From Octopus vulgaris (lineage: Eukaryota), in the NCBI GenBank assembly GCA_951406725.2, contig OX597832.1, positions 40,238,001 to 40,302,000 of the forward strand: DNA of 64,000 nucleotides, in the 5' to 3' direction. The notes under the pieces are model-generated. The model was not told where the DNA came from and searched no databases. It was given only the letters and a program-made list of their open reading frames with translations. This document shows, piece by piece, positions 1,188 through 49,508 of this stretch. The position numbers were made by a program, and so were the translations under genes. Numbering within the stretch: the first letter of the stretch is position 1; each line of letters starts with the position of its first letter.

Positions 1188-1422
1188 TACCTATTTCTTT
1201 ACTACCCACAAGAAGCTAAACACAGAGAGGACAAACAAGGACAGACATAGGTATTAAGTCGATTACATCGACCCCAGTGCGTAACTGGTACTTTATTTAT
1301 CGAACCCGAAAGGATGAAAGGCAAAGTTGACCTCAGCGGAATTTGAACTCACAATGTAACGGCAGACGAAATACCGCAAAGCATTTCGCCCGGCGTGCTA
1401 ACGTTTCTGCCAGCTCGCCGCC
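1188..1422 (-). mobile_element. tRNA-derived SINE family B
   Basis: Reverse complement of GGCGGCGAGCTGGCAGAAACGTTAGC...GAGTTCAAATTCCGC...GTGGGTAGTAAAGAAATAG. Confidence 0.85.
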
Positions 1423-1895
1423 TTACTATTTATTACTATGACAATGATGATGATGGTGATGATGATGATAGTGGTTGTGGTGGCAGAAATGAAGAGATCA
1501 GCTATGTTGTCGTTCTTATGCTGACTCCCACACACACACACACACTACTATTACCACTGCTACTAGCACCAGTCCAAATTCTGTGAAAGACCTTTATTCA
1601 AAAGTTCCAACTAATAAAAACATGCTGGGATGAAATGGTGTCCTGCCTTTGAGACACAAGGAACAGCATTTCAGGTTGGATATAAACAGATGGATTATGA
1701 CAACCACTGACTTATGATGTACAAATACCAGGTGATTTACTCTCACTGCGTGGTACCTTGGGCAAGTGTCTTCTACTATAGCCTCAGACTGACCAAAGCC
1801 TTGTGAGTGGGTTTGGTAGACGGAAACTGAAAGAAGCCCATTATATATATATATATATATATATATACTTTATTTTAAGCAGCAGAAAATTCAAC

Positions 1896-1943
1896 AAAAT
1901 CTGTTACTCTGAGTTTCTCGTTGCCGTTCATCAGACAGTTTTT
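1896..1943 (-). ncRNA. Minimal type I hammerhead ribozyme motif (left arm of palindrome)
   Basis: Reverse complement gives CTGT-CTGATGA-acggcaacga-GAAA-CTCAGAG-TA-ACAG. Confidence 0.62.
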
Positions 1944-1949
1944 GCTAGC

Positions 1950-1997
1950 AAAAACTGTCTGATGAACGGCAACGAGAAACTCAAAGTAACAGATTTT
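1950..1997 (+). ncRNA. Minimal type I hammerhead ribozyme motif (right arm of palindrome)
   Basis: CTGT-CTGATGA-aCG gcaa CGa-GAAA-CTcaaAG-TA-ACAG; canonical core, very short stem II. Confidence 0.62.
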
Positions 1998-3534
1998 GTT
2001 GAATTTTCTGCTGCTTAAAATAAAGCATATTACTCTACCACTGGTATTTGAGTACTCTTTTTTCCACCTTGTTTCACATTTATGTGTTTACTCCGGTATA
2101 TATATATATATATATATGTATGCTTATGTATGAGTCTTTGTGTCTGTGTTTGTCCACCACCCCCACCATCACCTGTTAGCTGGTGTTGGTGTGTTTATGT
2201 CCCCATAACTTAGCAGTTCAGGAAAAGAGATCGATAGAATAAGTACCAGGCTTACAAAGAATAAGTCCTGAGGTTGATTACTTCAACTTAAAGGTGGTGC
2301 TCCAGCATGACCACGGTCAAAATGACAAACAAGTAAAAGAATAAAAGAATAAGAGATTGTAAGGGTCATATAATCTAATTGGACCTAATTCAAGGTTTTA
2401 GTTTGTTGTGTCAAGAATTTAGTGATTACAAGATCAATTGGTTTCAGTATTAGTTTGGTATTTACCTTATCATTGGATCTGTCACACACACACACACACA
2501 CATTTATTACCTGTTAAGCTGAACACATCAGATAAGATTTCCCTGCTTTGAAGTGGTCTAAATCAACACCTTCCATTAAAATTTCATGTCAGTTTGTGTT
2601 TCAAAGACCAGCTTATGCAGAGTTATTTTTTTTACTAAATCCTTAATTAATTTCAGAATTAACCCAAATGCAGTGTATTTCAACAGAAATATGGTAACAA
2701 AAGGGTTAATTTCGAATTTTCATTTTTTTTTTTTTTTTTTTTGCAAATCAGAATTTAGGATATATAACTTTATTGTATTTTTCCTCATTAACCTCTCAGA
2801 AGCTGTGGGTGAGAAATGTAGGAGTTTTCTATTTATTTATTCCATGCCATTCTTTAAAAAAAAAAAAAAATTCTCTTGTGTTATTTAATCCTTCTACTTT
2901 TAACTAATTGAGCGAGGAAGAATTTGCACAAATTTACATATGGTTTGGCCCTTGGATGTAAAAATGTTTAACGCTCCATGTGTGCACGTGATTTGTGTTT
3001 TGTGAGAGCTGCGTATGTTTTATGGCTTCCGAATGCATTTTACTACAATATGATATTTGCTTCCTTTACTTTGTTTTCCTCTGTTCCATGTTTCTGATTC
3101 ACCACCAGCCCCACCATCCCCTTAGACGCTTCTTCAACACTCTATGGTTCCCTACATTGATTTTGATTAAAACTTTCTCCCTTATCCTTACATCTAATCA
3201 GTTACTGCTAAGTTAAGGAGCCAACAACTGCAGCGGCGGCAGCAGCAGCAGAAGCGGTAAATAGGACATTAGTCATTGGAAGGGAACAGCAGTTTGGTTC
3301 CTTATTTAATGTTCAGATATTCAAACAAGGTTTCAGAAAAGAAAAAAGGCTGCAGTAAAGAGGAGGAGGAGGTGGGGGGTACCTTTTCCCCCCATTTAAC
3401 AGCCCCCCACCCCCCAAATCGAAACTACTTCGGAGATGTTCTTGATGTTGGAATTAACCTAATAAAACAGTTTTAAGCTATGAAATTTAATTTTTCTCAG
3501 GATTTCGTTGAATTTCTTTCCCCACTCCTACTTG

Positions 3535-4414: not shown

Positions 4415-5747
4415 GGGGGGAGAGAGAGAGAGAACATGTGTTTATGTGAATGTGCATGTCTGTATGTGAGCTTATGTGTGTGTGTGTGTGTGTGTGCATG
4501 CATGTGAATGTATGTATGTGCATGTAAGCCTCTGTGTGTGTATGCATATGTTTGTGGTTGATGTGTAAGCATGTATGTTTGCAAATTTATGAACATCTAT
4601 GTCTCTGATTGGGGGGGGGGGAAAGATAACCAGTATTTTGTGAGTGAATTTGGAAGAGGGAAACTATGTGGAAGCTCATCATATCGTGTTTGTCTTTGTC
4701 CCCCCACGACCACCACCACCACTGCTTGACAACCAGTGTTAGTTTGTTTACATTCCTGTAACTTAACAGTTCAGCAAAAGAGGATGATAGAATAAGTTTC
4801 AGGCTTAAAAACAAGCACTGGGGTCAATTTGTTTGACTTAAACCCTTCGAAGCAGTACTCCAGCATGGTCACAGTCCAATGATTGGAACAAATATAATGC
4901 AAATGGTCTTCACCCTCACTTGCAGTATTCATTCCAGCTCCCTAATCTTTTGGAGTTCAAATCCTGCTGAGCTCTGCTTCTCCTTTCATTCTTTCAGGAT
5001 TGATAAAAAGGGACCAATCCATGGTTGTTGCAAGTTACTGGTTTGCAAAAATCACAGGGACCAAATTAGTGAATTGGTTAGACAGGCAGCAGTTGACAAA
5101 AGCAATCATCAATGCAGGGCAACTGGGTCAAAATCTAAAACATTTGGCAAAAAGCTAGCAGCAGAAAGAAATAGAGAGGTTGCTCCACAATAACCTCCGC
5201 TTTGTGCAATTCATCACAGAGTGGATTGGGAACGAAGCTGGCTTCACTGGGACCCTGGTCAATTTGGAAGCCATTCCAAAAGCCATCTCAGACAGATTTT
5301 AGGTGGTTGCTTCGTTCATTCGAGGGCACTACAACACTTGCTCGGTGGTCAAAGTAAATAGTCAGCTTCCAGAACTATTCCACGTCATATGTCCCATCCC
5401 ACTAAGTTACCCTCTTCTCACTTCTTCTGTACATTGCTGGTTCTTGAGTCGTTACTGAAGACCATGGAACTTTTCAACTGGGTGAACCAAGAGGGCTTTT
5501 GAAGTGGAGACAATCAGCACCATTCTAAAGAAATAGGAGCCAAGGGTTATGGCTATGATCTACCTAACCAAGTTGGTGGGCTTGCATCCCTTGTATCCTC
5601 ATCATCAGCTACCCCAGTGGCAATTAAAGGGATCATTATCATCAACGTTTAATTCAATGTTTTCAATAGTCTCAGGTGATGTTTTGTCTCTATGCTGCGG
5701 GTTTTGTTTTGTAAGAATTTTTTTTTTCTGGTGTTATTGTGTCAAAA

Positions 5748-5980
5748 GGCGGTGAGCTGGCAGAAGCGTTAACACACCGGGTGAAATGCTTAGCGGTATT
5801 TCGTCTGTCTTCACGTTCTGAGTTCAAATTCTGCCGAGGTCAACTTTACCTTTCATCCTTTCGGGGTCGATTAAATAAGTACCAGTTACGCACTGGGGTT
5901 GATATAATCAACTCAATCCTTTTGTCTGTCCTTGTTTGTCGCTTCTGTGTTTAGCCCCTTGTGGGTAGTAAAGAAATAGG
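5748..5980 (+). mobile_element. tRNA-derived SINE family B
   Basis: A box TGGCAGAAGCGTTAAC, B box GTTCAAATTC; homologous to 56151-56381. Confidence 0.85.
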
Positions 5981-6401
5981 TATGTTGTGTCAGCTTGTAA
6001 TATAGAACGTTTGCTGTGTGAGCTGAACACTTTTTTTTGTTGTTGTTTTTCTATCATTAGGTGATACTTTTTACATATTTATTGTGAATTGTGTTTTAGT
6101 TATCCATTAGGTGACGATTGTGTAGAATGTGTGGTGTTGGTCGTGGTGTAGAACTGTGGTGCATAAACGTTGCTTTAACCAAGGAGTTGAATCTTTCACA
6201 TTTACTGTGCTCCATTCTTGGCAATTCAAGACTGTTAATTATCTTCTTCAGACCTTTCATTAAGTAACTTTTTTGTAGAACTAGTAGAGTGAAATGTGGT
6301 GGAATAAAACGTGACAGTGATGAGGGGGCCTCCCCCCCCCCCACACACACACACATACAACACGCAAGCACGCGCGCACGCACACTGAATTTTGACGAAA
6401 G

Positions 6402-6409: not shown

Positions 6410-9389
6410 ATTAAAATTAAACTAACAGTAAATGGTTTAAAAAAATAAAAGTGTCTTCAACACTGCTCGGTTTAATAAGTTAACTAAACGATAGTGTTGA
6501 GAAATGAAAACAGTCATCTGCAATAATTACCTAATCTATAATAATGGGCTATTTTTAAACATTCGTTTGAGTCATTTTAGGTTACACAAGTTATTTTTGT
6601 ACTTTCCCTTCATTATTGTTAGTTTCATTTTAATTGACGCCGCTTTAGTTAATGATTACCTTACGTGTGTGTGTGTGTTTATTTAGTTTTATTTCGATGT
6701 TACCGTCACGTCTCTTCACAAACTAACCATTGCTGTTCGTCTTCTTTTTCTTTTTCGAAGCTGTTTCTGATGCCTGGGGATTCCATATCTGTTCTGCTAT
6801 TACCTCTGTGGAAGGAGATAAAATCTATTTTTTGTCATTATCTTATTTATTTATTCTTGGTTTCTCATTTTTCCCGTTGTCATTGTCATTTAATATTTTT
6901 AGAATGTGTATGGGTGGGCGGCTTAATTATTTCATCAGAAAACAATGAGTTAAAAGTTTATCTGCCTCATCTATAAAGACATCATGGTTTGCTTCTATAC
7001 ATATACACACACCAACAGTCAAAACTCCCTCGAATCACACAGCTACCGACTTACACCAGGAAATGAGACATTACACCATGCAGTCTGTCATAATACGGCA
7101 TGGTCACATATGGAATGTCTCTTCTGTCAGAGTGAACGACCTGAGCTAAGAAAAAAAAAATACGATAGAGGTGTTCGTGGTGTTTTAGACATGACATATG
7201 TCTCAGTAATAGTAATAATGTGTGTGCTGAATAAATAGTCGAATATAAATTGTGTTTGAATAGTTGTTGTTGTTCATGTTAGATAAAGACCAATTACTTC
7301 CCGGTCTCGGTCCCTTTTAATCCCCGCGCTCTCTCATCAAATATGGTAGTGAGGAAATACGTCGGTACTGTTCTGACTACTAGGGGACATTGCTGGTCAA
7401 TTTACATCGACTTTAGTTCTCAACTGGTACTTATTTTATCGACCCCCGAAAGGATGAAAGGACATGGTCGACTGGCGGAAATTGAACTCAGAACGTAAAG
7501 CCGGAAGAAATGCCATTAAGCATTTTATTCGATGCGCTAACGATCCTACGAACTCGAATGATAAGTTACAAAACTTGTATTAAGAAAAGTTCCCTCTTTT
7601 AGTATTTTAAATCAAAATCGGACAAGGGAGATAACCCTCGTAAAATCAGTTGATAGAAATTTGTTTTAAACACTACAAAATTTAAGGACATCTAAAGCCA
7701 GTTCGACCTCTTTCAGTCTTATTAGACCTCATTTAAGAAACATAATTTCAACAATATAGATAAAGGAGAAAGTTCCTTAGCTGCGTGTTCTACACGCTGA
7801 GTACAAATATAGTTTTAAACATAAGTTTAATGGATTTAGTTATCTGCCTTATTAGCTGTAATGAATTGGTTTGCATTTACAGTTATGGTCCATTCCACGG
7901 GCTTCCAAACAGATACCATTTATTCAAATTCACCCGTAATGCTTTGATCGACACACGATAATCGTACAGGATATATGCTTAATATTCCAGACAATGAGAT
8001 AGAATCTGGGACCTCATAATTGCGAAACAAACTTCTTCTCAGCCATATATTATCTATATATGCGTGTACATTACATGTCTTATGTTTTAAGGGACCAATG
8101 GTTTTAACGCAGTAATCTACAACGTAGTCCAACTGAACCATCAAAAACCCCTATCAATGTTTTGATGATCTACAGCAAATTTCTTAAGTCTGTGGAAGTC
8201 GCGAATTTTTCACAAAACAATTTAAAATTTAAATCAATTAAGAGTAAATTGACATGTATCTTTTATCGCTTCCGTCTTAACACTGCAGCCATGCTGGAGC
8301 ACTGCCTTTAAGAACTTTTGTCGAACTTATCGACCCCCAGTACTATTTTTGTAAAGCTTGTTACTTATTCTATCTGTCTCTTATACCGAATCGCTAAGTT
8401 ATGGGGACATAAACACTCATGCACTCAATGTGTGTCTTATACAATGCATAAATAAATTTCTTAATTTTAAATATTTACACCGTTTTGTTCCATTAAGTTT
8501 TTCTAATGAGTTTTGCAGATTATCTGCTGAAAACAGTTGTGTATCACTGGTTTAGAGTTTATGTTCGGCACTTCTGAACAAAGAATGTTTCACCCTTAAT
8601 TTAGCATTGTTAACGGCACAGAACATCGAAAAGTTCATTAAATATAATGATAATGGTTCTACAAAATGCTATCGGTCAGTATTTTTTGCAGTTCTTGTGT
8701 CCGGAAATATATTTAGAACTTTGCTGAGCTGAACAGAGGAATTAGATAGGTTACAGGAAACCAAACAGGAATGTTGGCGATGGACTGAATTGCTTGAAGC
8801 CAGCCATCTCTGCCTGTAAAGTGCAAAAAATAGCATATCTTCAGATGACTACGGATATACATTCTGACCTATTGACACATCTTTCACCTTCTGTTCTTCT
8901 CCCTCATTTCTCTACTATTTTCACAGCCATTAACCCACATCTCTTCCTCAGTTCTTTCTTAGACCCGGTTTGCTCCGACCAATTCCCGTGTGTCGTCATT
9001 TGTCGGTAGACTTTGTTACCGCCACCCGTTATCAACCTATCTATTTTGGGCTTGTCTGATATTTTGTTTTGTTGGTCTAATGTTTACATCTGTCATTATC
9101 AGATGATATAGTAAGTTACCTTGTTGTGATAAGAAACCTATATTGAAAGCTAATCCTAACTGGCTGATTCGACATTAAGTATTTCTTTTGGCTCTCGTCT
9201 TATGGATCTCTTCCAGGACTTCTTTGCAGTCAATCTCCTTTGTTTCAGATTCCCTATAAATAGTAAATTTGTTTCCTACTTGAGTATATAATCATCATAT
9301 TGCCTTTATATCTCGTTATTTTGTTATATGTTTAATGGCTATTTGAGATCATTATATTCATATATGTGTATACACTTTTTATTTTTCAG

Positions 9390-9499
9390 GCAACAAGATA
9401 GCCAAAATCAAGGAAAATGAAAAACCAGTTATATCACACCCCTCGAACTTCGAGCACACCGTTCATGTCGGCTTCGACCCTCACACAGGAGAATTTACT
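9390..9499 (+). CDS. PAK1: Group I PAK kinase, CRIB/PBD exon (first securely identified coding exon; needs an upstream phase-1 exon)
   Basis: ttttcag|G...ACT|gtatgt; translates [36 protein letters not shown] (CRIB motif). Confidence 0.95.
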
Positions 9500-9644
9500 G
9501 TATGTACTTTATATACGCACACACGTTTAAACACGATTATCGCTGATTATCAATCATATACATAACACTAGTTTGAATTTGAAAGCAAAATATAAACCCT
9601 GCTCTTTCATGATACGTTGTTTTGACCTTTTTAAATGTCCCTCT

Positions 9645-9877
9645 GGCGATCCTTCGGTATAGGTACCGGGAATGGCTTTGTTTATATTTCTGAGGATAAC
9701 AGAAACCTTTTTCTCTCACCCCTAATACAAACCCTAACCCCCCATATATATATATATATATGTTTGTTTGTACTCCACCTGCCTTCGTCTTATGTTTATT
9801 TTCGTAAGCTTCCCGTTATATATATATATATAAACCCTTTCTTGAAATGTATCCGGTACCTATACCGAAGTTATGCC
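9645..9877. mobile_element. MITE with GG termini and 9-bp TSD (Merlin- or MULE-like)
   Basis: TIR core CTTCGGTATAGGTACCGG / CCGGTACCTATACCGAAG; TSD TGTCCCTCT at 9636-9644 and 9878-9886. Confidence 0.85.
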
Positions 9878-11482
9878 TGTCCCTCTTAATAAAGTGCTGG
9901 AATAGCTGTCCTCCAAAACCCTTTACCTCATGGGGAAAGTATATGGAAATAGGAGACGAATCTTTTTTTATTATTGAAATTTTACCCTTTTCCTTCCCCA
10001 TAAGGTATGGAAATTCGAAGGACAATCTATTTCAAAGCTCCAACAGAGAGCCTTAAATAATGTAATCGTATGATGTAAAAGCAGACCGTTATAAATGTTC
10101 CTCTTTTATTTGACATGTATATTCAGTCCTGGGCCCAAAGAGTGGGAAATTTCAAACTTAACCTTGTTTGGTATTTTATTTTGTCGCCACTGATATCATC
10201 CTCAACTCGTCCTTATTAATTAGCAAACAAATTTTTTAAAATCTCCCTGAACGAGATTCTTGTTTCAAACATGATTCAATTTCTAGATGTCATCACTGTG
10301 CCAGGTTCATGCGGAAGTCTCTTTATTTACACATATCTTTGAAAGATACATGTGAATTTACGAATGTGTGGAGGATAAATATAATATGCGTACGCGCGTG
10401 TATAGACGTACATACATATAATATAATGAAATTATTGTATACAGTGCTCAGGTGCCCCACAACATATACATACACTCAGCACATTTTTGCTTTGGATTTT
10501 CCCTTTATCTAACAAGAGGCACCGTTTACTCATAACCTTTTAATTATACATATCCTCTGTCACTCAGTTCCCGTTTTCGGGACACATGTCGTGTATTTTA
10601 CAAAATGTTTTACTTTCACTAATTGATAGCAAAGAGTTTGGGGGGAATTTATGAAAATGTATTCAGTTCTCTGTTACTGGAGTGGACAACGTATTTTCTA
10701 TATTGTACACGTTGCTAAGGACTTCTTAGGTAGATATAGGACTGAGTGGGAGTGAAGTATAACAGAAAGGTTTGGTTAATATTGTAACTATAGTTTTCAT
10801 CGCACGTTTAATGTCAGTAAATGTTGGAAAAAGAATTTATAAGAATTTCCATTTTACGATTTTTCGTACATAATCGCTAGAGACTGAGAATTTCTTGACA
10901 AGGGAGATAATATTTGCCTGGCGCAGTGGTTCACGCAAGCAAAATGGTATCTTGGGGGGGGGGGGGTCCACAGTAGTTTTTTTTTTTTTTTAAGGGTTCA
11001 TGAATGTGTGAAAAACAAAATACAAACTTTGAAAGAAATATCTGTAAAACTAGTTCTTAAATATCCAATGGCGATGGGGTCCACCCAGGTAAAATAGTAA
11101 TCAGAGGGGTCCATAGGTAAAATATAAAATAATAATAATAATGAAATTATTGTATACAGTGCTCAGGTGCCCCACAACTTGTCAGAAGTGCGTATAAAGC
11201 ATATGCAGTAATGTACAAATGTCTGGGAAGTGAACAGTGTATGAGTCAGATACATGCTTGCGTGTGTATGGAGGGGAGAAAATCAGGTGTAGTGTTGGCG
11301 AATCTCAGGAAGCATGGAAGTTTTTAAGTTTAGTTGAAAACCACTAGAGATAGTGTCTTTTTATACCGTATTAAAATTGAAACTCCCTGAGTAATAAAAG
11401 CACGAAAGTTGATGCTTGAATTAAATTAATTTTTAATAATTGTTATTAATTTGTTGTTGTCTTTTTTTTTTCTTTTGTCTAG

Positions 11483-11645
11483 GGCATGCCAGAATCCTGG
11501 GCGAAGTTATTACAAAACTCCAATATATCTAAACTGGAACAGAAGAAAAACCCACAGGCTGTCCTCGATGTACTTAACTACTACGATAACTCTACAAAAG
11601 AGAAAAAAGAATCCAAATATATGCATATTAAACAGTCGAGTAGTA
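11483..11645 (+). CDS. PAK1: PAK autoinhibitory-domain exon
   Basis: tctag|GGC...A|gtaagt; [35 protein letters not shown]...SKYM; in frame with the previous exon. Confidence 0.95.
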
Positions 11646-12913
11646 GTAAGTATCTAATGTGTGTGGATACATATAGGGGGTACCCCACCCGGAATATATA
11701 ATGGGTAATACATCAGAAACGACTATAGGGAAGTCACTTATTGGATCAAAGGCCCCCCCATTTATCTCATAAGACTATGATGGATCTGCAACTAGAAAGA
11801 CTAGAAAGTTCCTCTGCAAGGTGCAGGTTTTTATGCACACAAGCCTATTCTCTCTCTGTTATTGATGTCATCCAAGGGGAATGGCAGGGTTGGATACGAC
11901 TTGAGATCAGTGTTATCATAAGTATTGTTGTCAGAATGCAAAAAGCCGGAACAAATATTGCAAGGCACCTTGCCTGATCCTTTAACAATTTCACCAATCT
12001 TCCTCCTTTGGCTGGTACATTCACCCCGGAAATATGAACAGCAAATTTCCCCAACGTGAGATTTGAACTCAGAACACATGGAGCTAAAACACATACCACA
12101 AGACATGTTATGCCACATTCTAACAACTCTGCCTTTTTGGGATATCATGTCTTAGATATATATATATATATATATATATATAGATAGATAGATATAGGGA
12201 TATCATATCTTGGATAAACATTGCTGTACAATACCTTGGATACATCATGATACTGAAAATATTGGAGAGCTTGCCTTTATGACTGACTTTTTGGTCAGCC
12301 TGAGGTTATGGCAGAAGTCACTTGCCCAAAGTGTCACACAATGGTGAACTTCTCTCTTTACCTTCTTTATAGTTAGACTCCATAACATTTCTGTGGATGT
12401 TTTGTTCACTAAGGAGAGCGGTTTTGTCACGGTCATCTTTGTATTGTGCATGTTTGGTCACTGAGAGTAAAAACTTTCTAAAGGGGAGGTAGTTCAGTTG
12501 TCTTCTCTTAGCTTCTATCTTTTTTTTTTTCTTTAAGATTTTGTCAAGGGAAGGAAGGTAGTGTCCATGACCCTTTTCAGGACCCATGACTAGTGGAAGG
12601 AAAGGAGGAACTTATCCTCATCCTAGACACTCGAGGTCCTGGTGGTGGTCTTAAACCAAACAATGGAAAATATCTCAGTCCTTGTGGTTCCTAATTGCCC
12701 CTAATTGTCTTTGTAGCCTTCTCTGCCACCTTGATCCATATGGTCCTAGCTACACTGCCCGTGTGGTCTTAGCTGTCCATTCCATCCGTATAGTCCTAAC
12801 TATCCCTGATCCTTGTGGTCCAAGCTGATCCAAAGCTCCAGGGTTGGATTTCTAATCATCCAGTTGTGAACTAAGCATATTTATGATTTTATTTACTTCT
12901 TTTGCATCCTCAG

Positions 12914-12978
12914 GTTCAAGCTCAAGCTCTGTTCGACCAAGCTTCTCAGACAAATTTGGAACCACTCATGTGATATGT
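12914..12978 (+). CDS. PAK1: PAK Ser-rich linker exon
   Basis: cctcag|GT...TGT|gtaagt; phase 1 in and phase 0 out, exactly bridging the neighbouring exons; SSSSSVRPSFSDKFGTTHVIC. Confidence 0.8.
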
Positions 12979-14395
12979 GTAAGTAACTATATGTATATGT
13001 ATGTATGTATCTATTTGTAGGTGTTGGGGCATATCTATTTTTGCTTCAGTTATTCAAGAACAACTTTCATTTTTAATATTATCCTTAAGCCTATTTATTG
13101 TTAATAATTCCTGACACTTCAAGTGTTATACTCTTATAGTAAGAATACCACAAGATTTGAAATTCAGTGTTTATATATGTATAAGGTAAAGTTGAGGTGA
13201 ATGGCATTCATCTATTCAATACTTATCAAAATACCACAGAATACTTTGGTTTAGGGAGGCAATTCCAGAGTGCATTGACCAGTATTGACCAGTCAAAAAA
13301 TATTCACTCTCATCTCCCCTACACATATAAGACATAAAGTAAGCATTTCATATACACTCTGGTGAATTCAAAACAAACACAACTGGTCTTGTAAGTGCCA
13401 TCATCTAAATGAACACACCTGCACACACACGTATAATTTTGTACACGTGCAAGTGTGGCTGTGTGATGGAAGTTTGCTTCCCAACCACATGGTTCTGGGT
13501 TCAATCCCACTGCATGGCACTTTCAGCAAGTGTCTTCTACTGTAGCTCCCACCTGACCAAAGCTCTGTGAAAGAAGCCCATCAATGCATAAAGCCTGGTA
13601 CTTATTCTAATCAGTCTCTTTTATGAAACTGCTAAGTTACAGGGACGTATACACACCAATGCCAGTTGACAAGCAATGGTGAAGGACAGACACTCACACA
13701 CATATGTATGGATAGATAGATATATATGACAGGTTTTCAGCGTCTGTCTAACAAATCCACTCACAAGGCTTTGGTTAGCCTTTGGTTGATGCTGATGAAC
13801 AACTGTTGAAGGATCACTGTTTAGTTCTTCTGTGACTTATCATTATTTTACATGAACCCATTTCTATAATAGCCTTTAATTGGTCGTTAATTGTAGAAGA
13901 TTGTCCACAAGGCTTTGGTTGATTCTGATGACTTTTGTCATCCTGTGATGGGTTGTTTTAATCCACTTATGGAACGAATCACTATATCACTCTATTGACA
14001 TGATTCATCAGTGTTTGTCGGGTGGGGAAGCCCTTATCTAATTCTGTTTGGGTGTGTGTCAAAATAACCAGGGTAGTTTTCCTGTATTGTATCAGTAATC
14101 TTAAAGGAAACTCTGACTGCCTTTATTCTCCTTATTGAAAAACTTGTTATAAACTCCTACGGCTTCTTGAAGGTCCCTTCATTACAATAACTTATGCCCA
14201 GTGACATCTTTTTGTCTTTCCTCCCCTCCCTTATTATCAGTTTTCTAGTATCTCATAACCTCTCAAGGCAACTTTCCAACGTAGTATTCCTCTCCTGTTC
14301 TCCCATTTATATTAGACATTTCTACTTATCTACACGTTAATGTTTAATGCAAGAGTGCTCACTGCTTCTTTCTTTTTGTACGTGTGTTTTTGTAG

Positions 14396-14500
14396 CCTAA
14401 AACTGAAAACTCAGCTCCCACTACTCCTGAGGAGGAAGAAGAGGAAGAGGAAGAGGTACCTCCTCCAATTACTACCAGACCTGATAAAACAAAATCTATT
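14396..14500 (+). CDS. PAK1: PAK acidic tract plus PIX/Cool SH3-binding motif exon
   Basis: tgtag|CCT...ATT|gtaagt; PKTENSAPTTPEEEEEEEEEVPPPITTRPDKTKSI resembles PAK1 PPPVIAPRPEHTKSV. Confidence 0.92.
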
Positions 14501-14739
14501 GTAAGTATTACCCGGGTGGCTTGTATACTTTTGATGATATGAAACAGAGATGGTGTAAAGCAGTGCTATGCAACCAGTATGCTGTGGCACACTGGTGTGC
14601 CACAACACAATCCTACATGTGACTTATCATTATTCTACATGAACCCATTTCTATAATAGCCTTTAATTGGTCGTTAATTGTAGAAGATTGTCCACAACCT
14701 TCCTCAGTTCTCACTATGAAATTTTTACAACTTAGCATC

Positions 14740-15456
14740 AAGCAGTATGGTCATCACAGATCCTCCTCCATGTTTAACAGTTGGAAGAAGGCAGTCTGGA
14801 TCAAATGCTTCTTTTGGCTGTCTCCACACGTATATTCGGCCAGTGGTCGGAAGTAAAACAAAGGATGACTCATTCAAGAAAATAACATTCTTCCACTGCT
14901 CTAGGGACCAATTCTGTAGGTTTTTACTCCACTCTAAACACTTTGCAACGTTTGATTTTGAAAGTAGTGGTTTTCTGATTGCAGCCCTCTCATGAAATCC
15001 AGCTTTGTGCAGCTCCCAGTGAACAGTTTTTGTGGAAACTGGGTTCTCGAGGTGGTCATTAAGCTCTGCAGTAATTTTGGGAGCTGTAGTTTTGTGATCC
15101 TTTCTAACAATTCACATAAGAGTCTGATAGTCCCTATCTGAAAGTTTTTGGGAGGGTTCTATGAGGAGGTTTTTTCCTTTTTCTCAAAGGCTGTCATTAC
15201 TTTCAAGACAGTACTTCTTGATGCACCAAAAATTTCAGCTGCTTTCGTTATACTAGCGCCTGCCATATGAGCACAAACTATTTGACCTATTTGAATGTCC
15301 AACAGATCTGTCATTTTAATGAATTTTAATTACCTTTCTCTGATGATATCTGAAAAGCAACAGCAATTTTAGCAAAACATATTAAGCAACGCTAATAATA
15401 AACGAAAAAACATAAATTATGATGCTAAGTGTTTCCGTTATTTTGTCCAACCCCTG
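14740..15456 (-). mobile_element. Tc1-like transposon, 5' half, decayed
   Basis: Terminus CAGGGGTTGGACAAAATAACGGAAAC at 15456; MTDLLDIQIGQIVCAHMAGASITKAAEIFGASRSTVLKV from 15314; WKNVIF..ESSF and PTVKHGGGSVM remnants; stops present. Confidence 0.85.
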
Positions 15457-15488
15457 CATATAAATATATGTATGTATATCCTTTCCAG

Positions 15489-15664
15489 TATACTAAACCA
15501 ATTGAGCCTGAAGACAAGACCAATGGTGCTACACAAGGTGGTCAGAAGGAGAAGCCGAAGAAGAAGAAGATGAGTGATGAAGAAATTGTAGAAAAACTGC
15601 GGACCATAGTAACTATAGGAGACCCAAATAGGAAATATACAAAAATGGAAAAAATTGGTCAAGG
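15489..15664 (+). CDS. PAK1: PAK exon, pre-kinase region and start of Gly-rich loop
   Basis: ttccag|TAT...GG|gtaagt; [35 protein letters not shown]. Confidence 0.96.
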
Positions 15665-16911
15665 GTAAGTTCTATCTGCCGCCACCACATCAATTTCAGC
15701 ACCTTCATTATAGTTAAGAGTGTCGTGTTTATAAACACTATCATAACATCATCATCATCATCACCATTGTAGCCAAAACATCTTAGTTGGTGGTGACTTC
15801 TCTGAGTTAATAAGGTCAAAATAATATTGAAATATGTCCAGTGTTGTCTTCCATACTTATCAGGAAAATTAAAACAATATTCATCCTTGATTAATATTGT
15901 TTCCCCACCCCTCACTGATATAATTCATAATACTCATTGTCATCTCCATTTGACATCCTCTTCTCCATGCTTGCATGGGTCAGATGGAATTTGTTGAGGC
16001 AGCTATTTTTATAGTTGGGTGCCCTTCCTGTTGCCAACCTTCACTCGTTTTTGAAGCAAGGTAATACTTCCCTACAGTCAGGTGTGTTTTTCATGGATGA
16101 CTAGAAATTAACAACACTACTTACAACCATCACATGATGTCTTGGCAAGGGAACACACAAACATGTACCTTATACATATACTTAAATGCATACTTACACA
16201 CACACACACAATGGGTTTCTTTCAGGTGCCATGTAGTGGGATTATTAAACCCAAGACCAAATGGTTAGGAAGCAAGCATCTAAACCTCACAACCACACCT
16301 GTGCTCTCAAGGTGTTATTCTATTTGCTGCTGCCCTCAGCACCACATCACTAATAGTCAACACCTCCATTATAATAGTGACGTGTTTGTAAATGCTACCA
16401 TGTCACCATCATGATCATCATCATGTTTTATTTTTCATACTCTCTGTATTGAATAGTTTGGCTCTAACTAACCTTTGAAATATAGCAATGGTAGAATATG
16501 TACCAGTAATATACTGTAGTCAGTGTCAACATCTATATCTCTTATGTTGGTTTCAATTTAATAGCAATTTAATGATCATAGACCCTGCCTACTCTCTGGC
16601 ATTCTAATTGTTGTATCCTCTGTTTCTCAAATGCAAAAGTGTCTCATTTTAAAGAGTCCATATTTTAATTAAAACCTTTGGTTATAGCTTTAAAAACACT
16701 TTATTAGTTTTGTAAAAAGATTTCATTAGTTCATGTTACAAAGACTGTAGGAAAGTCATTTTACTAAATTTTTTAACATTTTCAATTATTTCCAAAATTA
16801 ATTAAAACATTCTATAGAACTATTGACAATGAAAGTATTAAAGTTATTTAAATTTCTAAAATTATTTTTTCATGTTGCTGTATTATTATTTTTATTTCGT
16901 TTTACTTTCAG

Positions 16912-17098
16912 TGCGTCAGGAACTGTTTTTATTGCTATAGAAATTGCAACTGGTCGGGAAGTTGCTATTAAAACAATGAATCTTTCTCAGCAGCCGAAAA
17001 AAGAACTTATTATCAATGAAATCCTCGTTATGAGGGAAAACCAAAATCCAAATATTGTAAACTATTTGGATAGCTATTTGGTTGGTGAAGAGTTGTGG
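16912..17098 (+). CDS. PAK1: PAK kinase exon (VAIK lysine, helix C)
   Basis: tttcag|T...TGG|gtaagt; [62 protein letters not shown]. Confidence 0.97.
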
Positions 17099-17227
17099 GT
17101 AAGTTATTTCGTTTTATGGAACTATGTCTGTTGTTTATACGTCCCTGTATTACTTTTCTATACAAAGTAAATTGTGTCTTGAGACACCTGTACTAAGCTG
17201 TTACCAAATGATTCTTTATATCCACAG

Positions 17228-17320
17228 GTGGTGATGGAATATCTTGCTGGGGGTTCATTAACAGACGTTGTCACAGAAACCTGTATGGACGAAGGTCAAA
17301 TAGCAGCTGTCGGACGAGAG
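17228..17320 (+). CDS. PAK1: PAK kinase exon (hinge)
   Basis: ccacag|GTG...GAG|gtaagt; [31 protein letters not shown]. Confidence 0.97.
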
Positions 17321-17752
17321 GTAAGTAGTCAAGAGTTCACTGACTGTTTTGCTTTATTACTTATACACTATAGATCTTCATGCACACACTAACAATATAC
17401 ACCACTGTTGTTTATCATTTTATGGGATTCATATTCTGTGTCTCTGTCTTTCACACCATCACATACACAGTCTCTCTCTCACCTTTACTGTATATGTCTG
17501 TGTAATGTTACAGAATATATGTATTTCGTTTGTCTACTCATTCGTGTATATATACACACACACACACACACATAATCATCAGCAGCATTTAATGTCTGTT
17601 TTCCATGCTGGCATGGGTTGGGCAGCTTGACAAAGAACTGGCAAGGCCAGGGCCCACACCTATTGTTTGATAATTGCCAATGCACAAAACTCTCAGCCCT
17701 TTGTCAGTCAGTTGTTTCTATTAAATATTAATAAAAAATATACATCTACATA

Positions 17753-18133
17753 GGCGCAGGAGTGGCTGTGTGGTAAGTGGGTTCAGTCCCACTGCGTGGC
17801 ACCATTGGGCAAGTATCTTCTACTATAGCCTCAGGCCGACCAAAGCCTTGTGAGTGGATTTGGTAGACGGAAACTGAAAGAAGCCCGTCGTATATATGTA
17901 TATATATATGTCTGTATGTGTTTGTATGTGTCCTCCTAGCATTGCTTGATAACCGATGCTGGTGTGTTTATGTCCCCGTCACTTAGCGGTTCGGCAAAAG
18001 AGACCGATAAAATAAGTACTGGGCTTACAAAGAATAAGTCCCGGGGTCGATTTGCTCGACTAAAGGCGGTGCTCCAGCATGGCCGCAGTCAACTGACTGA
18101 AACAAGTAAAAGAGTAAAAGAAAGAGTAAAGAG
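17753..18133 (+). mobile_element. tRNA-derived SINE family A, near full length
   Basis: Same head, internal (TA/TG) tract and GTAAAAGA tail as 13-403. Confidence 0.85.
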
Positions 18134-18298
18134 TATATACTCATATTTAGAGTTCTAGTCTTCCTGTCTGCATCACCATACCCATAAGACACACACTATG
18201 TTTGCTTGTGTATAAGTCATTGTATTTTATGCTGAATTTTAAATGAAATTAAGAAGAACATAATTATCCTATAATTGCCATTTTCTCTTCATTTCTAG

Positions 18299-18475
<177 letters not shown>

Positions 18476-19493
18476 TGATGAAGGAATTCGTTGATAACCT
18501 AATTTATATTTTGATCATTTTCATTGACATTAGCTATATTGTCTTGGAAAATATATATCTCTTGTTATTCTACTTGCACTGAGCAAAAAAATGTTGAGAA
18601 ACAGTGATCTAGAAGTTAGTAGCCATAATAAAGAATATACACTAACACAACAGATAACTCCTTTTCCATTTGGCACAAGGCCTGCAATTTTGTGAGGGTG
18701 GGCTCATCAATTACATCATCCCCAGTGCTCAACTGGTGCTTATTTCATCCAAAAAGGATGAAAGACAATCAAAGTACCGCTAGGCATTTTGTCCTGCATG
18801 CTAACAATTCTGCCAGCCTTTATAATAATTAGATCAAGGAATTTTGTTGGTTTCAAATTTTGGCACAAGGCTAGCAGGTTTGGGGAATGGGGCTAAGTCC
18901 ATTACATCAACCCCAGTGTTCCCCTGGTACTTATTTTATCAACACCGATAGGATGAAAAGCAAAGTCAACTGCAGTGGAATTTGAACTCTGAACATAAAG
19001 AAAGATGAAGTGCCTCTCAGCATTTCGTCCAGCACACTAACGATTCTGACCATTCACCTCCTTGTAGGCTAAGAGAGTAAAGAGTAAAGACCCCCTTCGG
19101 TCATGAATGACCATGAGATTGCACCTAGAAAGTTACCCTCTGAGACACAAGTCCAGGGAAGGTTGTTTATGGATAACCCGGCAGTCACCCAGGCATACCA
19201 GCCTCCCTCCTCCATGCCACCAATGTTATCCAAGGGAAAGGCAAAGGGCAATACAGCTTGGCACCAGTGACATCACAATTCATTTCTACAGATGAGTGAA
19301 CTGGAACAATGTGAAATAAAGTGACGTGCTTAAGAACACAACATTCAACTCAGTCTGAGAATCGAACTCACTACTTCATGATTATGAGCCTGACACTCTA
19401 ACCACTGAGCCATGCACCTTCAAACCTTAGTAATAACACTATCAATAAAAACAAATTTGTAAGAACGCAAAATGTTTTGTTTATTTGTACTAA

Positions 19494-19628
<135 letters not shown>

Positions 19629-20795
19629 TGAGTGAAGTCCTTTTTCTTTTTTTCATTTATAATCTCTGTTCTATGAATAGATGAAGTCAATTGTATTTTT
19701 AAACAACACAATAGATAATTCCATGAAAACAGCACAGTTGATTATTATCATTATCATCATCATCATCATCATTCACTGTCCACTTTTTCATGCTTGCTTT
19801 TGGCCAGGCAGAATTTGTTGAGTCAGATTTTTTTCTGTGGCCAGATGCTCTTCCTGTCACCAACACTCACCTCTTTCTTGACAAGGTAATATTTCCCCAC
19901 TACTAGACACGTTTTTCACAGAAGACTGGAAATAAACTACATTGTTTGTAAGATGGTGATGTTAGTTTACAACCATCTTGTGAGGTCCCACAAGGGTACT
20001 CACAAACACAGGCATGCACACACACACACACACATCATCATCATCATCGTCATTTAACGTCCATTGTCCATGCTGGCATGGGTTGGACGGTGTGACCAGA
20101 GCTGGCAAATCAGGGGACTGCATCAGACCCCAGTCGGTTTTTGCATGGGTTTTACAGCTTGAAGCCCTTCCTAACACCAACCACTTCACAGAGTGTGCTG
20201 GATGTTTTTACATGGCACCACCCAGGTGCTTTTACATATCCACTGTACTGTTGGGCAGTGGGGGTCACTGACAGGCTGAATTAACTTACAAGTAAAACCT
20301 ATGAAACAAGTCATCATCATCATCATTTAACGTCCGCTTTCCATGCTAGCATGGGTTGGACGATTTGATTGAAGTCTACCGAACCAGATGGCTGCACCAG
20401 ACTCCAATCATGATTTGGCAGAGCTTCTACAGCTGGATGCCTTTCCTAACACCGACCAGTCCAAGAGTGTAGTGGGTGCTTTTTACGTGCCACCGGCACG
20501 GGGGCCAGTCAGGCGGTACTGTTAACGACCTCGCTCGAATGTTTTTTCATGTGCCAGTAAGGTGACGCTGGTAACGATCACGCTCGAATGGTGCCTTTTA
20601 CATGCCACTGGCACGAAACATTGCACTCATATTAAGCAACTGTATACCTACTTTTGCCTACCCGCTTTGTATATATATATATTTATATCCACACTCATCT
20701 TATGTATATTTAAGCTACATGGACAATTTATTGCTCAAAAATTGATGTGATATCAATGTTTAATAATAATTTTTTTCTTCTTCTTCCTTATCCAG

Positions 20796-20895
20796 AAAAC
20801 AATACGGTCCAAAAGTTGATATTTGGAGTTTAGGGATAATGGCTATTGAAATGATTGAAGGAGAACCACCTTATTTGAATGAAAATCCTTTAAGA
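20796..20895 (+). CDS. PAK1: PAK kinase exon
   Basis: atccag|A...AGA|gtgagt; [33 protein letters not shown]. Confidence 0.97.
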
Positions 20896-21898
20896 GTGAG
20901 TTATTCAGCTATTTATTTGTGTGTATGTTAAGATTGGTATTTACAGGACATAATGATAAAGTTACTGGATTATCATCACATGGGGTCAAGAGTTCAAATT
21001 CTGTTGCAGCTTTATTGTGTGTGTCTGAGTTTTTACATTTCATAACGGCAGTGGCAGATGCTGTTGTTGACAAAATGGTACATGGAAGACCCATTCAGCA
21101 TATATCAATATGAATAAATATACACATTAAAAACATTGATAATGGCGATGGTGGCATTGGTGGTGACACCCAGTAAAATATGTGATGGAAAGTTAATAAC
21201 CAAGGGAGATAATTCAATTTTTTCATCTCTTTTACTCTTTTCAAGTCATTTGACTGTGGCCAGGCTGGAGCACCGCCTTTAGCCACGCAAATCGACCCCA
21301 AGACTTATTCTTTGTAAGCCTAGTACTTATTCTATCAATCTCTTTTGCCAAACCGCTAAGTTACGGGAACGTAAACACACCACCATCGGTTGTCAAGCAT
21401 TTAATGTCCGCTTTCCATGCTAGCATGGGTTGGACGATTTGACTGAGGTCTAGCAAACTAGATGGCTGCACCAGAATCGAATCTGATCTGGCAGAGAATC
21501 TACAGTTGGATGCCCTCCCTAACGCCAACCACTCCGAGAGTGTAGTGGGTGCTTTTACACGCCACCGGCACGAGGGCCAGTCAAGTGGTACTGGCAACGG
21601 CCATGCTCAAATGGTGCTTTTTATGTACCACCTGCACAGGAGCCAGTCCAGCGGCACTGGCAACGACCTCGCTCGAATGTTTTTTCACGTGCCACCAGCA
21701 CAAGTGCCCTGTATGTATAATTGTGTGTGTGTATTTGTAAGTGTATGAATATCTATTCAGCAATGTGTGTATATTTATCAGTGTATGTATATTTATATGC
21801 GTATTTATCAGAGTGCATATTCAATTTATTCCTTTTTCTTTCTACTGTCACTTCTCTGTGTATCCAGCTTAACATTTCTACCGTTGTTCCATTCCCAG

Positions 21899-22036
21899 GC
21901 ACTGTACTTAATAGCAACAAATGGTAAACCAGAAATCAAAGAGAAACACAAGTTGTCACCGGTCTTCCAGGATTTCTTGGACAAATGTTTGGAGGTTGAT
22001 GTTGATAAACGGGCATCAGCATCAGAATTACTTAAG
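21899..22036 (+). CDS. PAK1: PAK kinase exon
   Basis: cccag|GCA...AAG|gtaaca; [46 protein letters not shown]. Confidence 0.96.
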
Positions 22037-22149
22037 GTAACATCACCTTTATCTAATTATTTCCCCCTCACATCACCCCTCCTGACCCTTTTATACCAGC
22101 ACTGCCAGTATGTTCCAGACCTTGTTTATATATATATGTAATCATCAAA

Positions 22150-22375
22150 GGTGGCGAATTGGCAGAAACGTTAGCACACCAGGCGAAATGCGCAGCCGTA
22201 TTTCATCTGCCGTTACGTTGTGAGTTCAAATTCCGCTGAGGTCGACTTTGCATTTCATCCTTTCGGGGTCGATAAATTAAGTACCATTTACGCACTGGGG
22301 TCGATATACTCGACTTAATCCCTTTGTCTGTCCTTGTTTGTCCCCTCTGTTTAGCCCCTTGAGGGTAATAAATAA
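22150..22375 (+). mobile_element. tRNA-derived SINE family B
   Basis: Homologous to 56151-56381; flanked by repeated TATATATGTAATCATCA. Confidence 0.85.
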
Positions 22376-22866
22376 ATATATATGTAATCATCATCATTTA
22401 ACAGCTACTATCCATGTTGACATGGGTTGGATGGCTTGACCAGAGCTGGCAAGGCTAGGGGCTGCACCACGTTCCATAGTCTGTTTTGGGTTTGGTTTCT
22501 ACAGCTGGAGGCCTCTCCTAATGCCAACCACTCCACAGGGTGTACTGGTAAGGCCAGCGGATGCACCAGGCTCCATTGTCTGTTTTGGCATGGTTTCTAT
22601 GGCTTGATGCCTCTCCTAATGCCAACCACTCCACAGGGTGTACTGGGTGCATTTTACGTGGCACCTTGGTTTTAGGATCTCAATTCTGTTGTGGTGGTCA
22701 GCTCTTCTTGCACTACATATCTCAGCCCTCCTTGTTCGACAGGCCTGTGACTAAAATCAACAACAGTAAAAAAAGTTGTTTATGTATACATTTTTTTATC
22801 ATGTTTTTCAATATATTTTGGTATTTCCCTTTTTTCTATCGCCATTCTTTTCCGATTCCGTTGCAG

Positions 22867-22950
22867 CATTCTTTCCTCCGTCTAGCCAAGCCACTGGCTA
22901 GTCTAGTGCCACTAATAATGGCTGCAAAAGAAGCACAGAAAACACATTGA
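22867..22950 (+). CDS. PAK1: PAK last coding exon
   Basis: ttgcag|CAT...TGA; HSFLRLAKPLASLVPLIMAAKEAQKTH* matches the group I PAK C-terminus. Confidence 0.96.
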   Translation, partial: HSFLRLAKPLASLVPLIMAAKEAQKTH

Positions 22951-28570: not shown

Positions 28571-28700
28571 TGATGACTTTAAACCTTATAATTGCAGTCA
28601 TTTTATTGTTTATTCTGAGCAAAATACATAACTTGTGATGACTTTAAACCTTATAATTGCAGTCATTTTATTGTTTATTCTGAGCAAAATACATAACTTG
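28571..28700. repeat. Perfect 65-bp tandem duplication
   Basis: TGATGACTTTAAACC...CATAACTTG at 28571 and 28636. Confidence 0.95.
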
Positions 28701-43860: not shown

Positions 43861-44515
43861 AACCAGCCAGGATCCCTGGCCTGGTGGTACGTAAAAAGCA
43901 CTATCCGACTCGTGGCCGTGGCACGTAAAATACTCCAATGCGACCGTACGACAGGCACCCATGCCAACCCCCTTTGCTTGTGAAGACATGTTGGGGCAAG
44001 CGAAATCGAATTGAACCAGCCAGGATCCCTGGTCTGGTGGTACGTAAAAAGCACTATCCGACTCGTGGCCGTGGCACGTAAAATACTCCAATGCGACCGT
44101 ACGACAGGCACCCTTGCCAACCCCCTTTGCTTGTGAAGACATGTTGGGGCAAGCGAAATCGAAATCGAATTGAACCAGCCAGGATCCCTGGTCTGGTGGT
44201 ACGTAAAAAGCACTATCCGACTCGTGGCCGATGCCAGCACCGCCTCGACTGGCTTCCGTGCCGGTGGCACATAAAATACACCAATCTGACCGTGGCCGTT
44301 GCCAGCCCCGCCTGGCACCTGTGCAGGTGGCACGTAAAAAGCACCCACTACACTCACGGAGTGGTTGGCGTTAGGAAGGGCATCCAGCTGTAGAAACATT
44401 GCCAGATTAGACTGGAGCCTGGTGCAGCCTTCTGGCTTCCCAGAACCCCGGTCGAACCGTCCAACCCATGCTAGCATGGAGAACGGACGTTAAACGACGA
44501 TGATGATGATGATGA
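43861..44515 (+). mobile_element. Repeat family C (GAT-tailed, RTE-type 3' end) with internal ~153-bp tandem amplification
   Basis: Tail CATGCTAGCATGGAGAACGGACGTTAAACGACGATGATGAT; unit restarts at 43861, 44014 and 44173; other copies near 20311-20620, 21395-21710, 31170-31432, 48720-49107, 50615-50875. Confidence 0.75.
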
Positions 44516-49305: not shown

Positions 49306-49508
49306 ATATAGCCCAAGTATTTATGTATGAATACCAAGAGTATATAGCCCAAGTATTTATGTATGAATACCAAGAGTATATAGCCCAAGTATTTATGTAT
49401 GAATACCAAGAGTATATAGCCCAAGTATTTATGTATGAATACCAAGAGTATATAGCCCAAGTATTTATGTATGAATACCAAGAGTATATAGCCCAAGTAT
49501 TTATGTAT
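49306..49508. repeat. 36-bp minisatellite, 5.6 perfect copies
   Basis: Unit ATATAGCCCAAGTATTTATGTATGAATACCAAGAGT. Confidence 0.97.

What the first reader, a model, noticed from the sequence alone, without database searches (positions are those of the whole stretch)
1868..2096. Spacerless 158-bp palindrome that encodes a hammerhead ribozyme on each strand
Seen: 79-bp arms with one mismatch, each reading CTGT-CTGATGA-acggcaacga-GAAA-ctca(a/g)ag-TA-ACAG, inserted in a (TA)n tract inside a SINE upstream of the PAK CRIB exon. Known: Penelope-like elements carry minimal type I hammerheads in their pseudo-LTRs, often in inverted arrangement. Inference: any transcript crossing this site contains a sense ribozyme that competes with a long hairpin, giving either self-cleavage or an ADAR/Dicer dsRNA substrate, probably within a PAK intron.
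Basis: partly seen in the sequence, partly recalled or inferred. Interest (0 to 1): 0.72.

Follow-up and report, generated by a model that had tools for sequence, protein, structure and literature searches.

The report
Penelope retrotransposon stub pair in intron
This palindrome in an octopus kinase-gene intron is one of many look-alike head-to-head stubs of a young Penelope-type jumping gene, likely made when two DNA copies ran off the front end of the element's RNA; its ribozyme motifs are predicted to be locked in a hairpin and unable to cut, so the site itself is ordinary.

Summary
Observation confirmed: 79-bp arms, one mismatch, a minimal type I hammerhead motif on each strand, inserted in (TA)n inside a SINE, within a 45-kb PAK intron. 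It is two head-to-head stubs of the terminal repeat of a young Hydra-clade Penelope-like element (727-codon frame, telomerase-like fold). One arm word has 4,065 exact copies and 138 loci share this exact centre. 41 of 43 sampled pairs have one tail-bearing and one tail-less end. Short arms pile up just inside an initiator-like site 17 nt before the ribozyme core, likely the RNA start; a cap is not shown and 0 of 73 arms stop at the ribozyme cut. An intronic dsRNA substrate is plausible but untested. Inverted PLE ends with hammerheads are published, and this scan already reported the same pattern on other DNA of this and other genomes. New family member of a known kind.

The parts
1744..1841 (+). 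Left part of the host SINE (5'-truncated copy)
   Evidence: 91% to the uninterrupted paralogue at 17787-17909 and 86% to 500-600; other copies continue upstream into a tRNA-like head that this copy lacks (loose ends; tRNA origin inferred by eye)
1842..1867 (.). (TA)13 target microsatellite, left side
   Evidence: 112 of 125 tail-less family ends are followed by TATATA
1868..1946 (-). Tail-less arm: Hydra-clade PLE terminal repeat from about -14 to +66 relative to the hammerhead core C; matches the family norm
   Evidence: 100% to the parent locus L069; 4,065 exact copies of a 35-mer from it
1901..1938 (-). Minimal type I hammerhead motif with self-complementary stem III (family norm); predicted cut between 1905 and 1904
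   Evidence: predicted dimer stem III -7.4 kcal/mol; same stem I, core and stem III layout as Hydra-2_aMil in File S2 of PMC8557442
1945..1948 (.). CTAG shared by both arms: head-to-head junction (4-nt self-complementary microhomology), 3 nt inside the family's 5' boundary at -17
   Evidence: 138 loci share the exact 36-nt centre; overlap of 4 nt in 5 of 43 sampled pairs
1947..2025 (+). Tail-bearing arm: same terminal repeat, PAK-sense strand
   Evidence: 98.7% to L069:4208-4363 together with the tail
1955..1992 (+). Minimal type I hammerhead motif; predicted cut after 1988; rare G>A at 1984 breaks the dimer stem III and leaves a C-A mismatch in the hairpin
   Evidence: 24 exact copies of the A form against 4,065 of the G form
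2026..2096 (+). 71-bp PLE tail: 5' leader between the two fixed element ends; in intact copies it runs on into the ORF
   Evidence: 67 exact tail-to-ORF junctions in the genome
2097..2349 (+). (TA)n target, right side, then the right part of the host SINE
   Evidence: 78% to the paralogue at 17891-18122
9390..9500 (+). PAK CRIB exon: acceptor end of the ~45.5-kb intron that holds the insertion (upstream exon at G000:C19:40201829-40201919)

Best explanation
The feature is a pair of short head-to-head copies of the terminal repeat of a young Hydra-clade Penelope-like retrotransposon, inserted in a (TA)n tract in a PAK intron, likely made when both sides of a cut in the TA repeat primed reverse transcription at two fixed sites on the element's RNA and both copies ran to the RNA's likely 5' end and annealed. 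Shown: the parent element and its clade motifs; thousands of young copies; two fixed outer ends (+66 and +137 from the ribozyme core) joined to (TA)n; one of each end per pair; a pile-up of inner ends just inside -17; a CTAG overlap at this junction; intronic position. Inferred: that the endonuclease cuts both strands, that each end is a priming site, that -17 (the A of CCATTCT, an initiator-like word; consensus recalled) is the transcription start, and that the two cDNAs anneal through CTAG. At this locus the insert has no promoter region or ORF and is a dead by-product. In PAK pre-mRNA it is predicted to fold as a 79-bp hairpin and not as a ribozyme; it would be an incidental ADAR substrate (A1984 opposite C1909) with probably no effect on the gene.
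For: Parent: arms run on into an endonuclease frame in longer copies with the same geometry; intact units of 3,359 bp with a 727-codon frame; fold search ranks telomerase first, top 3 of the listed hits, E 6e-10; RWK, DKT, CxCX5C, CxxC and CxH motifs as defined for Hydra. Copy number: 150 of 150 scored endonuclease hits are 98-100% identical; 4,065 exact arm words; 138 exact centres. Geometry: 41 of 43 pairs have one tail and one tail-less end. Inner ends: 32 of 102 arms end at -12..-20, 5 at -21..-60; genome-wide apparent ends at -16, -17, -18 number 309, 312, 33. Arms are both short (31) or both long (11), mixed 0 of 42, Fisher p 2e-10. In vitro, a PLE protein nicks and extends both strands and starts at two internal sites that bound the tail (PMC11167929). 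Folding.
Against: No RNA data were obtained: transcription start, cap, editing and cleavage are all unobserved. A cap-derived G is not separable from partner-templated letters, and microhomology blurs -15 to -17. 0 of 30 ORF-linked internal repeats end at -12..-20, so long copies need another template (read-through, multimer, circle or a template jump) that I could not identify. The 43-pair sample covers 88 of the first 100 hits on one contig; the 12 left out are all widely spaced, so short copies are over-counted. 22 arms had no partner called; one (L141) is a long tail-less arm ending in an 11-bp tail-less stub, against both the one-tail rule and the no-mixed rule. Arkhipova et al. read head-to-head palindromes as self-priming on an antisense template (PMC3846280).
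Confidence: 0.8

Rival explanations
1. Same element, but the palindrome arose by fold-back: one cDNA snapped back at CTAG (or an antisense RNA self-primed) and copied itself to give the second arm.
For: The centre is a perfect self-complementary word; the arms usually share subfamily markers (26 of 35 short pairs identical at six marker sites); proposed in print for Adineta elements (PMC3846280 passages).
Against: The second arm stops at one fixed family position joined to (TA)n (112 of 125) even in multi-kilobase pairs whose inner ends differ by hundreds of bases; many junctions are asymmetric or carry extra letters; 1 of 35 pairs has arms of two subfamilies (L015, three marker differences). 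The one mismatch here is not shared between the arms, though it could postdate insertion.
Confidence: 0.12
2. One reading: a switch in PAK pre-mRNA between self-cleavage and a dsRNA substrate that affects the gene.
For: The site is intronic and sense-strand for isoforms that use the upstream exons; a single arm can reach the hammerhead fold within 2.7-4.7 kcal/mol; a PLE hammerhead was protein-assisted in vitro (PMC11167929).
Against: Hairpin favoured by 75-80 kcal/mol, stem I probability 0.000, and it forms as the RNA grows; the sense arm has lost its dimer stem III; the insertion is about 99% identical to intact copies and one of at least 138 equals; it lies 7.3 kb from the nearest mapped splice site.
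Confidence: 0.04
3. The short palindromes are a self-propagating non-autonomous family (retrozyme- or MITE-like) copied from one another.
For: 138 loci share an identical centre; animal retrozymes are proposed to be PLE derivatives (bioRxiv 10.64898/2026.07.22.740005, part 1 of 5).
Against: Junctions vary base by base across loci and subfamilies; the same centre recurs in a second subfamily (L096), which fits repeated formation at a microhomology; no tandem monomers; no region upstream of -17.
Confidence: 0.03
4. Assembly or library fold-back artefact.
For: No contig of four DNA runs bridges the site; long reads were not seen.
Against: The arms differ at one base, where the left arm has the family norm; they end at two different family-specific positions; 138 loci share the centre, and the 10 fetched lie at separate places on two contigs; the geometry is that of published PLE insertions.
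Confidence: 0.01

Closest known systems
Hydra clade of C-terminal EN+ Penelope-like elements (Craig et al. 2021, PMC8557442; section 11 read whole, other passages and supplement passages seen), including Hydra-1_Obim and Hydra-2_Amil
   Same: [quoted passage not shown] The hammerhead has the same stem I, core and stem III layout as Hydra-2_aMil.
   Different: A different family from Hydra-1_Obim (different hammerhead; protein clearly related by eye, identity not computed). Unit 3.36 kb against 'generally <3 kb'; tail 71 bp against 30-40 bp; thousands of near-identical copies with many intact frames; stem II only 2 bp with a GNRA loop.
PAc (Poseidon, Anolis) in vitro mechanism (Frangieh et al. 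2024, PMC11167929; parts 1-2 of 4 read)
   Same: Two fixed ends downstream of the hammerhead that bound the tail; AT-rich target; both strands used; no sign that hammerhead cleavage is needed.
   Different: Other clade; here the tail lies before the ORF, not in it; both ends here partly resemble the TA target (CATAT, TCTA), whereas PAc starts were described as not homologous to the target; PAc data do not cover head-to-head joining or run-off at the RNA start.
Minimal type I hammerheads of metazoan PLE repeats (Cervera and de la Pena 2014, PMC4209133; passages read)
   Same: Type I topology, canonical core, short palindromic stem III that implies a dimer.
   Different: Here the two motifs are on opposite strands, so they cannot form the tandem dimer; activity untested.
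Head-to-head inverted pLTRs of Adineta vaga Penelope (Arkhipova et al. 2013, PMC3846280; passages read)
   Same: Palindromic inverted junction, optional tail, TATA/Inr-like words in the repeat.
   Different: Explained there by self-priming on an antisense template; the counts here fit two primers better.
Animal non-LTR retrozymes (PMC7229834 passages; bioRxiv 10.64898/2026.07.22.740005 part 1 of 5)
   Same: Short, non-coding, type I hammerhead, PLE-related.
   Different: Retrozymes are tandem direct repeats of 170-400 nt with mostly canonical ribozymes; this is an inverted pair cut from a coding element.

Membership tests
EN+ Penelope-like element | Single ORF with telomerase-like RT | tested here: met
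   727-codon frame; model pLDDT 88.9; telomerase structures rank 1-3. Pfam and a PDB sequence search found nothing.
EN+ Penelope-like element | C-terminal GIY-YIG endonuclease | tested here: inconclusive
   VVY...YTG motif by eye; Pfam GIY-YIG hit in only 1 of 39 aligned relatives, E 0.014, none in the query; domain not folded separately.
EN+ Penelope-like element | Partial tandems forming pseudo-LTRs, inverted 5'-truncated copy, tail at one end | tested here: met
   (41 of 43 pairs)
Hydra clade | RWK and DKT motifs | tested here: met
   both in P0001, definition
Hydra clade | CxCX5C linker, CxxC and CxH; no CCHH | tested here: met
   read from P0001; no cysteine between the two halves of the GIY-YIG core
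Hydra clade | (TA)n target and hammerhead | tested here: met
   File S2 rows
Hydra clade | Length generally under 3 kb | tested here: not met
   3,359-bp unit; a tendency in the paper, not a strict criterion
Hydra clade | Placement in the clade by RT phylogeny | not tested
   No tree built; likeness to Hydra-1_Obim and Hydra-1/2_Amil judged by eye
Type I hammerhead ribozyme | Core CUGANGA, GAAA, UH with stems I-III | tested here: met
   stem II is 2 bp with an A-A at its base, stem III 3 bp as monomer
Type I hammerhead ribozyme | Match to an Rfam hammerhead model | tested here: not met
   no hit at E<=10 in window 1500-2500; single arms were not scanned apart
Type I hammerhead ribozyme | Conservation or covariation under selection | tested here: inconclusive
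   Family copies are too young to test; loop variants are mostly GNRA; conservation with a coral family is supportive
Type I hammerhead ribozyme | Self-cleavage | not testable with these tools
   Indirect only: 0 of 73 arms and 0 of 30 internal repeats stop at the cut site
Non-LTR retrozyme | Tandem direct monomers each with a hammerhead | tested here: not met
   inverted pair, no tandem repeat here

The most novel reading that the evidence does not exclude
The thousands of young insertions of this family are a base-resolution record of Penelope integration: one complex primes from both sides of a TA cut at two fixed RNA sites; on a linear transcript both copies run off an initiator at -17 and anneal into ribozyme-bearing palindromes, while ORF-bearing copies come from a second template (circle or multimer) that has no such end. 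That would explain the head-to-head repeats and one-sided tail of these elements and make this intact, high-copy family a test system; a side effect would be hundreds of new near-perfect hairpins in the genome, some of them intronic, in an animal known for heavy RNA editing (recalled).
Probability: 0.5. Interest if true: 0.55.

Novelty: new member of a known kind. Interest (0 to 1): 0.3.

Why it matters
For PAK it probably does not matter: a recent, passive intronic insertion whose ribozyme motifs are predicted to be masked. For transposon biology the family matters modestly. Papers read here call the steps that give PLE inverted repeats undefined (PMC8557442), and this family offers many intact frames, a sharp inner boundary and a strict pairing of ends, which make the two-primer model directly testable. 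My seven literature searches found no description of this family or of octopus hammerheads beyond Hydra-1_Obim, and the octopus repeat annotation paper has no mention of hammerhead, ribozyme or Hydra in its main text (its supplements were not seen and may hold the family as a consensus). The same pattern has been reported several times by this scan, which lowers the added value of this instance.

Tried and rejected
1) A systematic G/A asymmetry between tail-less and tail-bearing arms (0 of 29 tail arms with G in the first set), which suggested editing or a replication scar: rejected as ascertainment, because in loci picked by protein 11 of 11 tail arms and 21 of 22 tail-less arms have G and the A form is 24 against 4,065. 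2) Neptune clade, my first guess from the cysteine linker: replaced by Hydra. 3) Copies stopping at the ribozyme cut: 0 of 73 and 0 of 30. 4) Cap-derived G at -18: inconclusive; of 15 G cases among 30 loci, 9 are templated by the partner arm and 6 lie in other extra letters. 5) An upstream RNA hairpin as the cause of the -17 edge: only weak folds, -4.8 to -10.9 kcal/mol, differing between subfamilies; not excluded. 6) Rfam, Pfam and PDB sequence searches: no hammerhead, RT or solved relative. 7) Contigs of four DNA runs: flanks covered, no contig bridges the site, so neither a filled nor an empty allele was seen. 8) No RNA run was laid, so splicing across the site, editing and small RNAs stay open. 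9) Lunse et al. on dimer cleavage was not held; known only through a review passage. 10) The bacterial promoter scan does not apply to this organism.

Full report
1. Observation. The palindrome is real: 1868-2025, two 79-bp arms, no spacer, one mismatch (C1909/A1984). Each strand carries one type I hammerhead motif, the only two in the window by my scan, and the + strand cut site is after 1988. The insert runs 1868-2096 between two (TA)n tracts that split a SINE whose halves are contiguous in a paralogue at 17787-18122. Rfam gives no hammerhead hit here.

2. Parent element. A DNA search of the own genome returned 40 scored loci at 93-100% identity, many with an inverted arm beside them. Longer copies continue into an endonuclease frame and show the same layout on a larger scale. 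All 150 scored endonuclease hits are 98-100% identical and many lie in 727-codon frames. Intact units are 3,359 bp: repeat with hammerhead, 71-bp tail, ORF, about 1 kb of 3' sequence, repeat. The protein folds with pLDDT 88.9 and telomerases rank first in a fold search; Pfam does not recognise it. It carries the motifs that Craig et al. give for the Hydra clade. Their File S2 lists a coral Hydra hammerhead with the same stem I, core and stem III layout, and an octopus family, Hydra-1_Obim, with a different one. No tree was built. The host is an octopus, judged from PAK exons 93-100% identical to an Octopus protein where the alignment stays within an exon.

3. Numbers. A 35-mer of the left arm has 4,065 exact copies, the 36-nt centre 138 loci, the tail-to-ORF junction 67. 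The + strand arm's A at 1984 is rare: 24 copies. An apparent G/A asymmetry between arm types in my first set was ascertainment.

4. Insertion geometry, with positions counted from the C of CUGAUGA. I fetched 88 of the first 100 exact hits on contig C1; the 12 left out are widely spaced, so short copies are over-counted. Among 108 arms there are 43 head-to-head pairs; 41 have one end at +66 and one at +137, and 2 have a partial arm. These ends abut (TA)n: 112 of 125 tail-less ends read TATATA next; of 110 tail ends 74 read TATATA and 13 TCTATA (de-duplication approximate). Of 102 arms with an inner end in view, 34 end at -11..+41, 32 at -12..-20, 5 at -21..-60 and 31 further up. Genome-wide, apparent ends at -16, -17 and -18 number 309, 312 and 33; microhomology blurs the exact base and a cap G is not shown. 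Position -17 is the A of CCATTCT, which fits the initiator consensus (recalled). After dropping one complex locus, 31 pairs are short-short, 11 long-long and none mixed at a cut-off of -50; 22 arms had no partner called, and one of them (L141) is a counter-example. One of 35 short pairs has arms of two subfamilies. None of 73 arms stops at the ribozyme cut. Of 30 (of 67) ORF-linked internal repeats none ends at -12..-20 or at the cut; 24 pass -30.

5. Mechanism. Shown: two fixed outer ends, one of each per pair, a sharp inner boundary and a CTAG overlap at this junction. Inferred: both sides of a cut in (TA)n prime reverse transcription at the two sites, as a PLE protein does in vitro (PMC11167929, parts 1-2 of 4); both copies run to the RNA's 5' end near -17 and anneal through CTAG. 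Long copies read through that point and need another template, a read-through RNA, multimer or circle; this is unresolved. Fold-back or antisense self-priming (PMC3846280 passages) is the main rival. I took the 'front end of the RNA' reading from earlier notes of this scan and tested it on this family.

6. The locus. The upstream PAK coding exon lies at G000:C19:40201829-40201919 with a GT donor in phase with the acceptor before window 9390, so the insert is in a ~45.5-kb intron, on the sense strand for its right arm. One annotated isoform starts at window 9202 and would not include it. On either strand the antisense arm is transcribed first; predicted folds of the growing RNA pair the motif as it appears. 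Forcing the hammerhead costs 75 (+) or 80 (-) kcal/mol, against 2.7-4.7 for a single arm. The G>A change drops the predicted dimer stem III from -7.4 to -0.1 kcal/mol. Metazoan minimal PLE hammerheads are reported inactive as monomers and slow as dimers (PMC4209133 passages). Self-cleavage of PAK pre-mRNA here is therefore unlikely. A 79-bp hairpin with an A-C mismatch is a plausible ADAR substrate (established knowledge, recalled), but I have no RNA data.

7. Comparison and novelty. Hammerheads in PLE repeats, inverted truncated copies, palindromic junctions, one-sided tails and (TA)n targeting are all in print. This family was not found in my searches; supplements of the octopus repeat paper were not seen. 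Papers seen: PMC8557442 (outline, section 11, passages, supplement passages), PMC11167929 (parts 1-2 of 4), PMC13282606 (part 1 of 3 and a word search), bioRxiv 10.64898/2026.07.22.740005 (part 1 of 5), PMC4209133, PMC3846280, PMC2377424, PMC6765202, PMC7229834 (passages).

8. Verdict. Real, explained, and ordinary as a locus; a new family of a known clade whose copies support a testable integration model. Interest 0.3.

Noticed in passing
G000 genome-wide; L065-L084, L167-L196: The family looks recently active: many intact 727-codon frames, arms of one insertion mostly over 99% identical, 67 exact tail-to-ORF junctions.
   Followed up: partly
L016, L020, L022, L025, L026, L029, L096: Older subfamilies carry CCGAUGA or CCGACGA in the core and A-U, A-G or A-C at the base of stem II; the youngest has CUGAUGA with A-A. 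Effects on activity unknown.
   Followed up: partly
window 2021-2030 and 2091-2100; L069:4285-4370: Both fixed ends fall where the element sequence partly resembles the TA target (CATAT, TCTA), and 13 of 110 tail ends keep TC before the repeat, which hints at short primer-template pairing.
   Followed up: partly
L015: Palindrome whose two arms differ at three subfamily marker sites, as if copied from two RNAs.
   Followed up: partly
L096 (G000:C1:4677772-4680806): Two separate short palindromes of different subfamilies with the same CTAG centre, about 730 bp apart.
   Followed up: no
window 1188-1424 and 5746-5982; 228-346 and 1736-1854: Inverted SINE pairs (87% and 84%) in the same PAK intron, further possible dsRNA.
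   Followed up: no
window 9390-22950, 9202-9267; L034:4083-4118; G000:C19:40138203, 40201829: Group I PAK gene over about 123 kb with alternative first exons.
   Followed up: partly
window 14725-15158 (-): Frames resembling a Tc1/mariner transposase remnant, judged by eye.
   Followed up: no
window 43861-44230, 49296-49508, 28571-28702: Tandem repeats with periods 153, 36 and 65 at 96-100% identity.
   Followed up: no
P0002-P0121: 1,760 relatives of the element protein at E<=1e-20, the listed ones 43-58% identical and nearly all unnamed: the Hydra clade is far larger than the published set.
   Followed up: no
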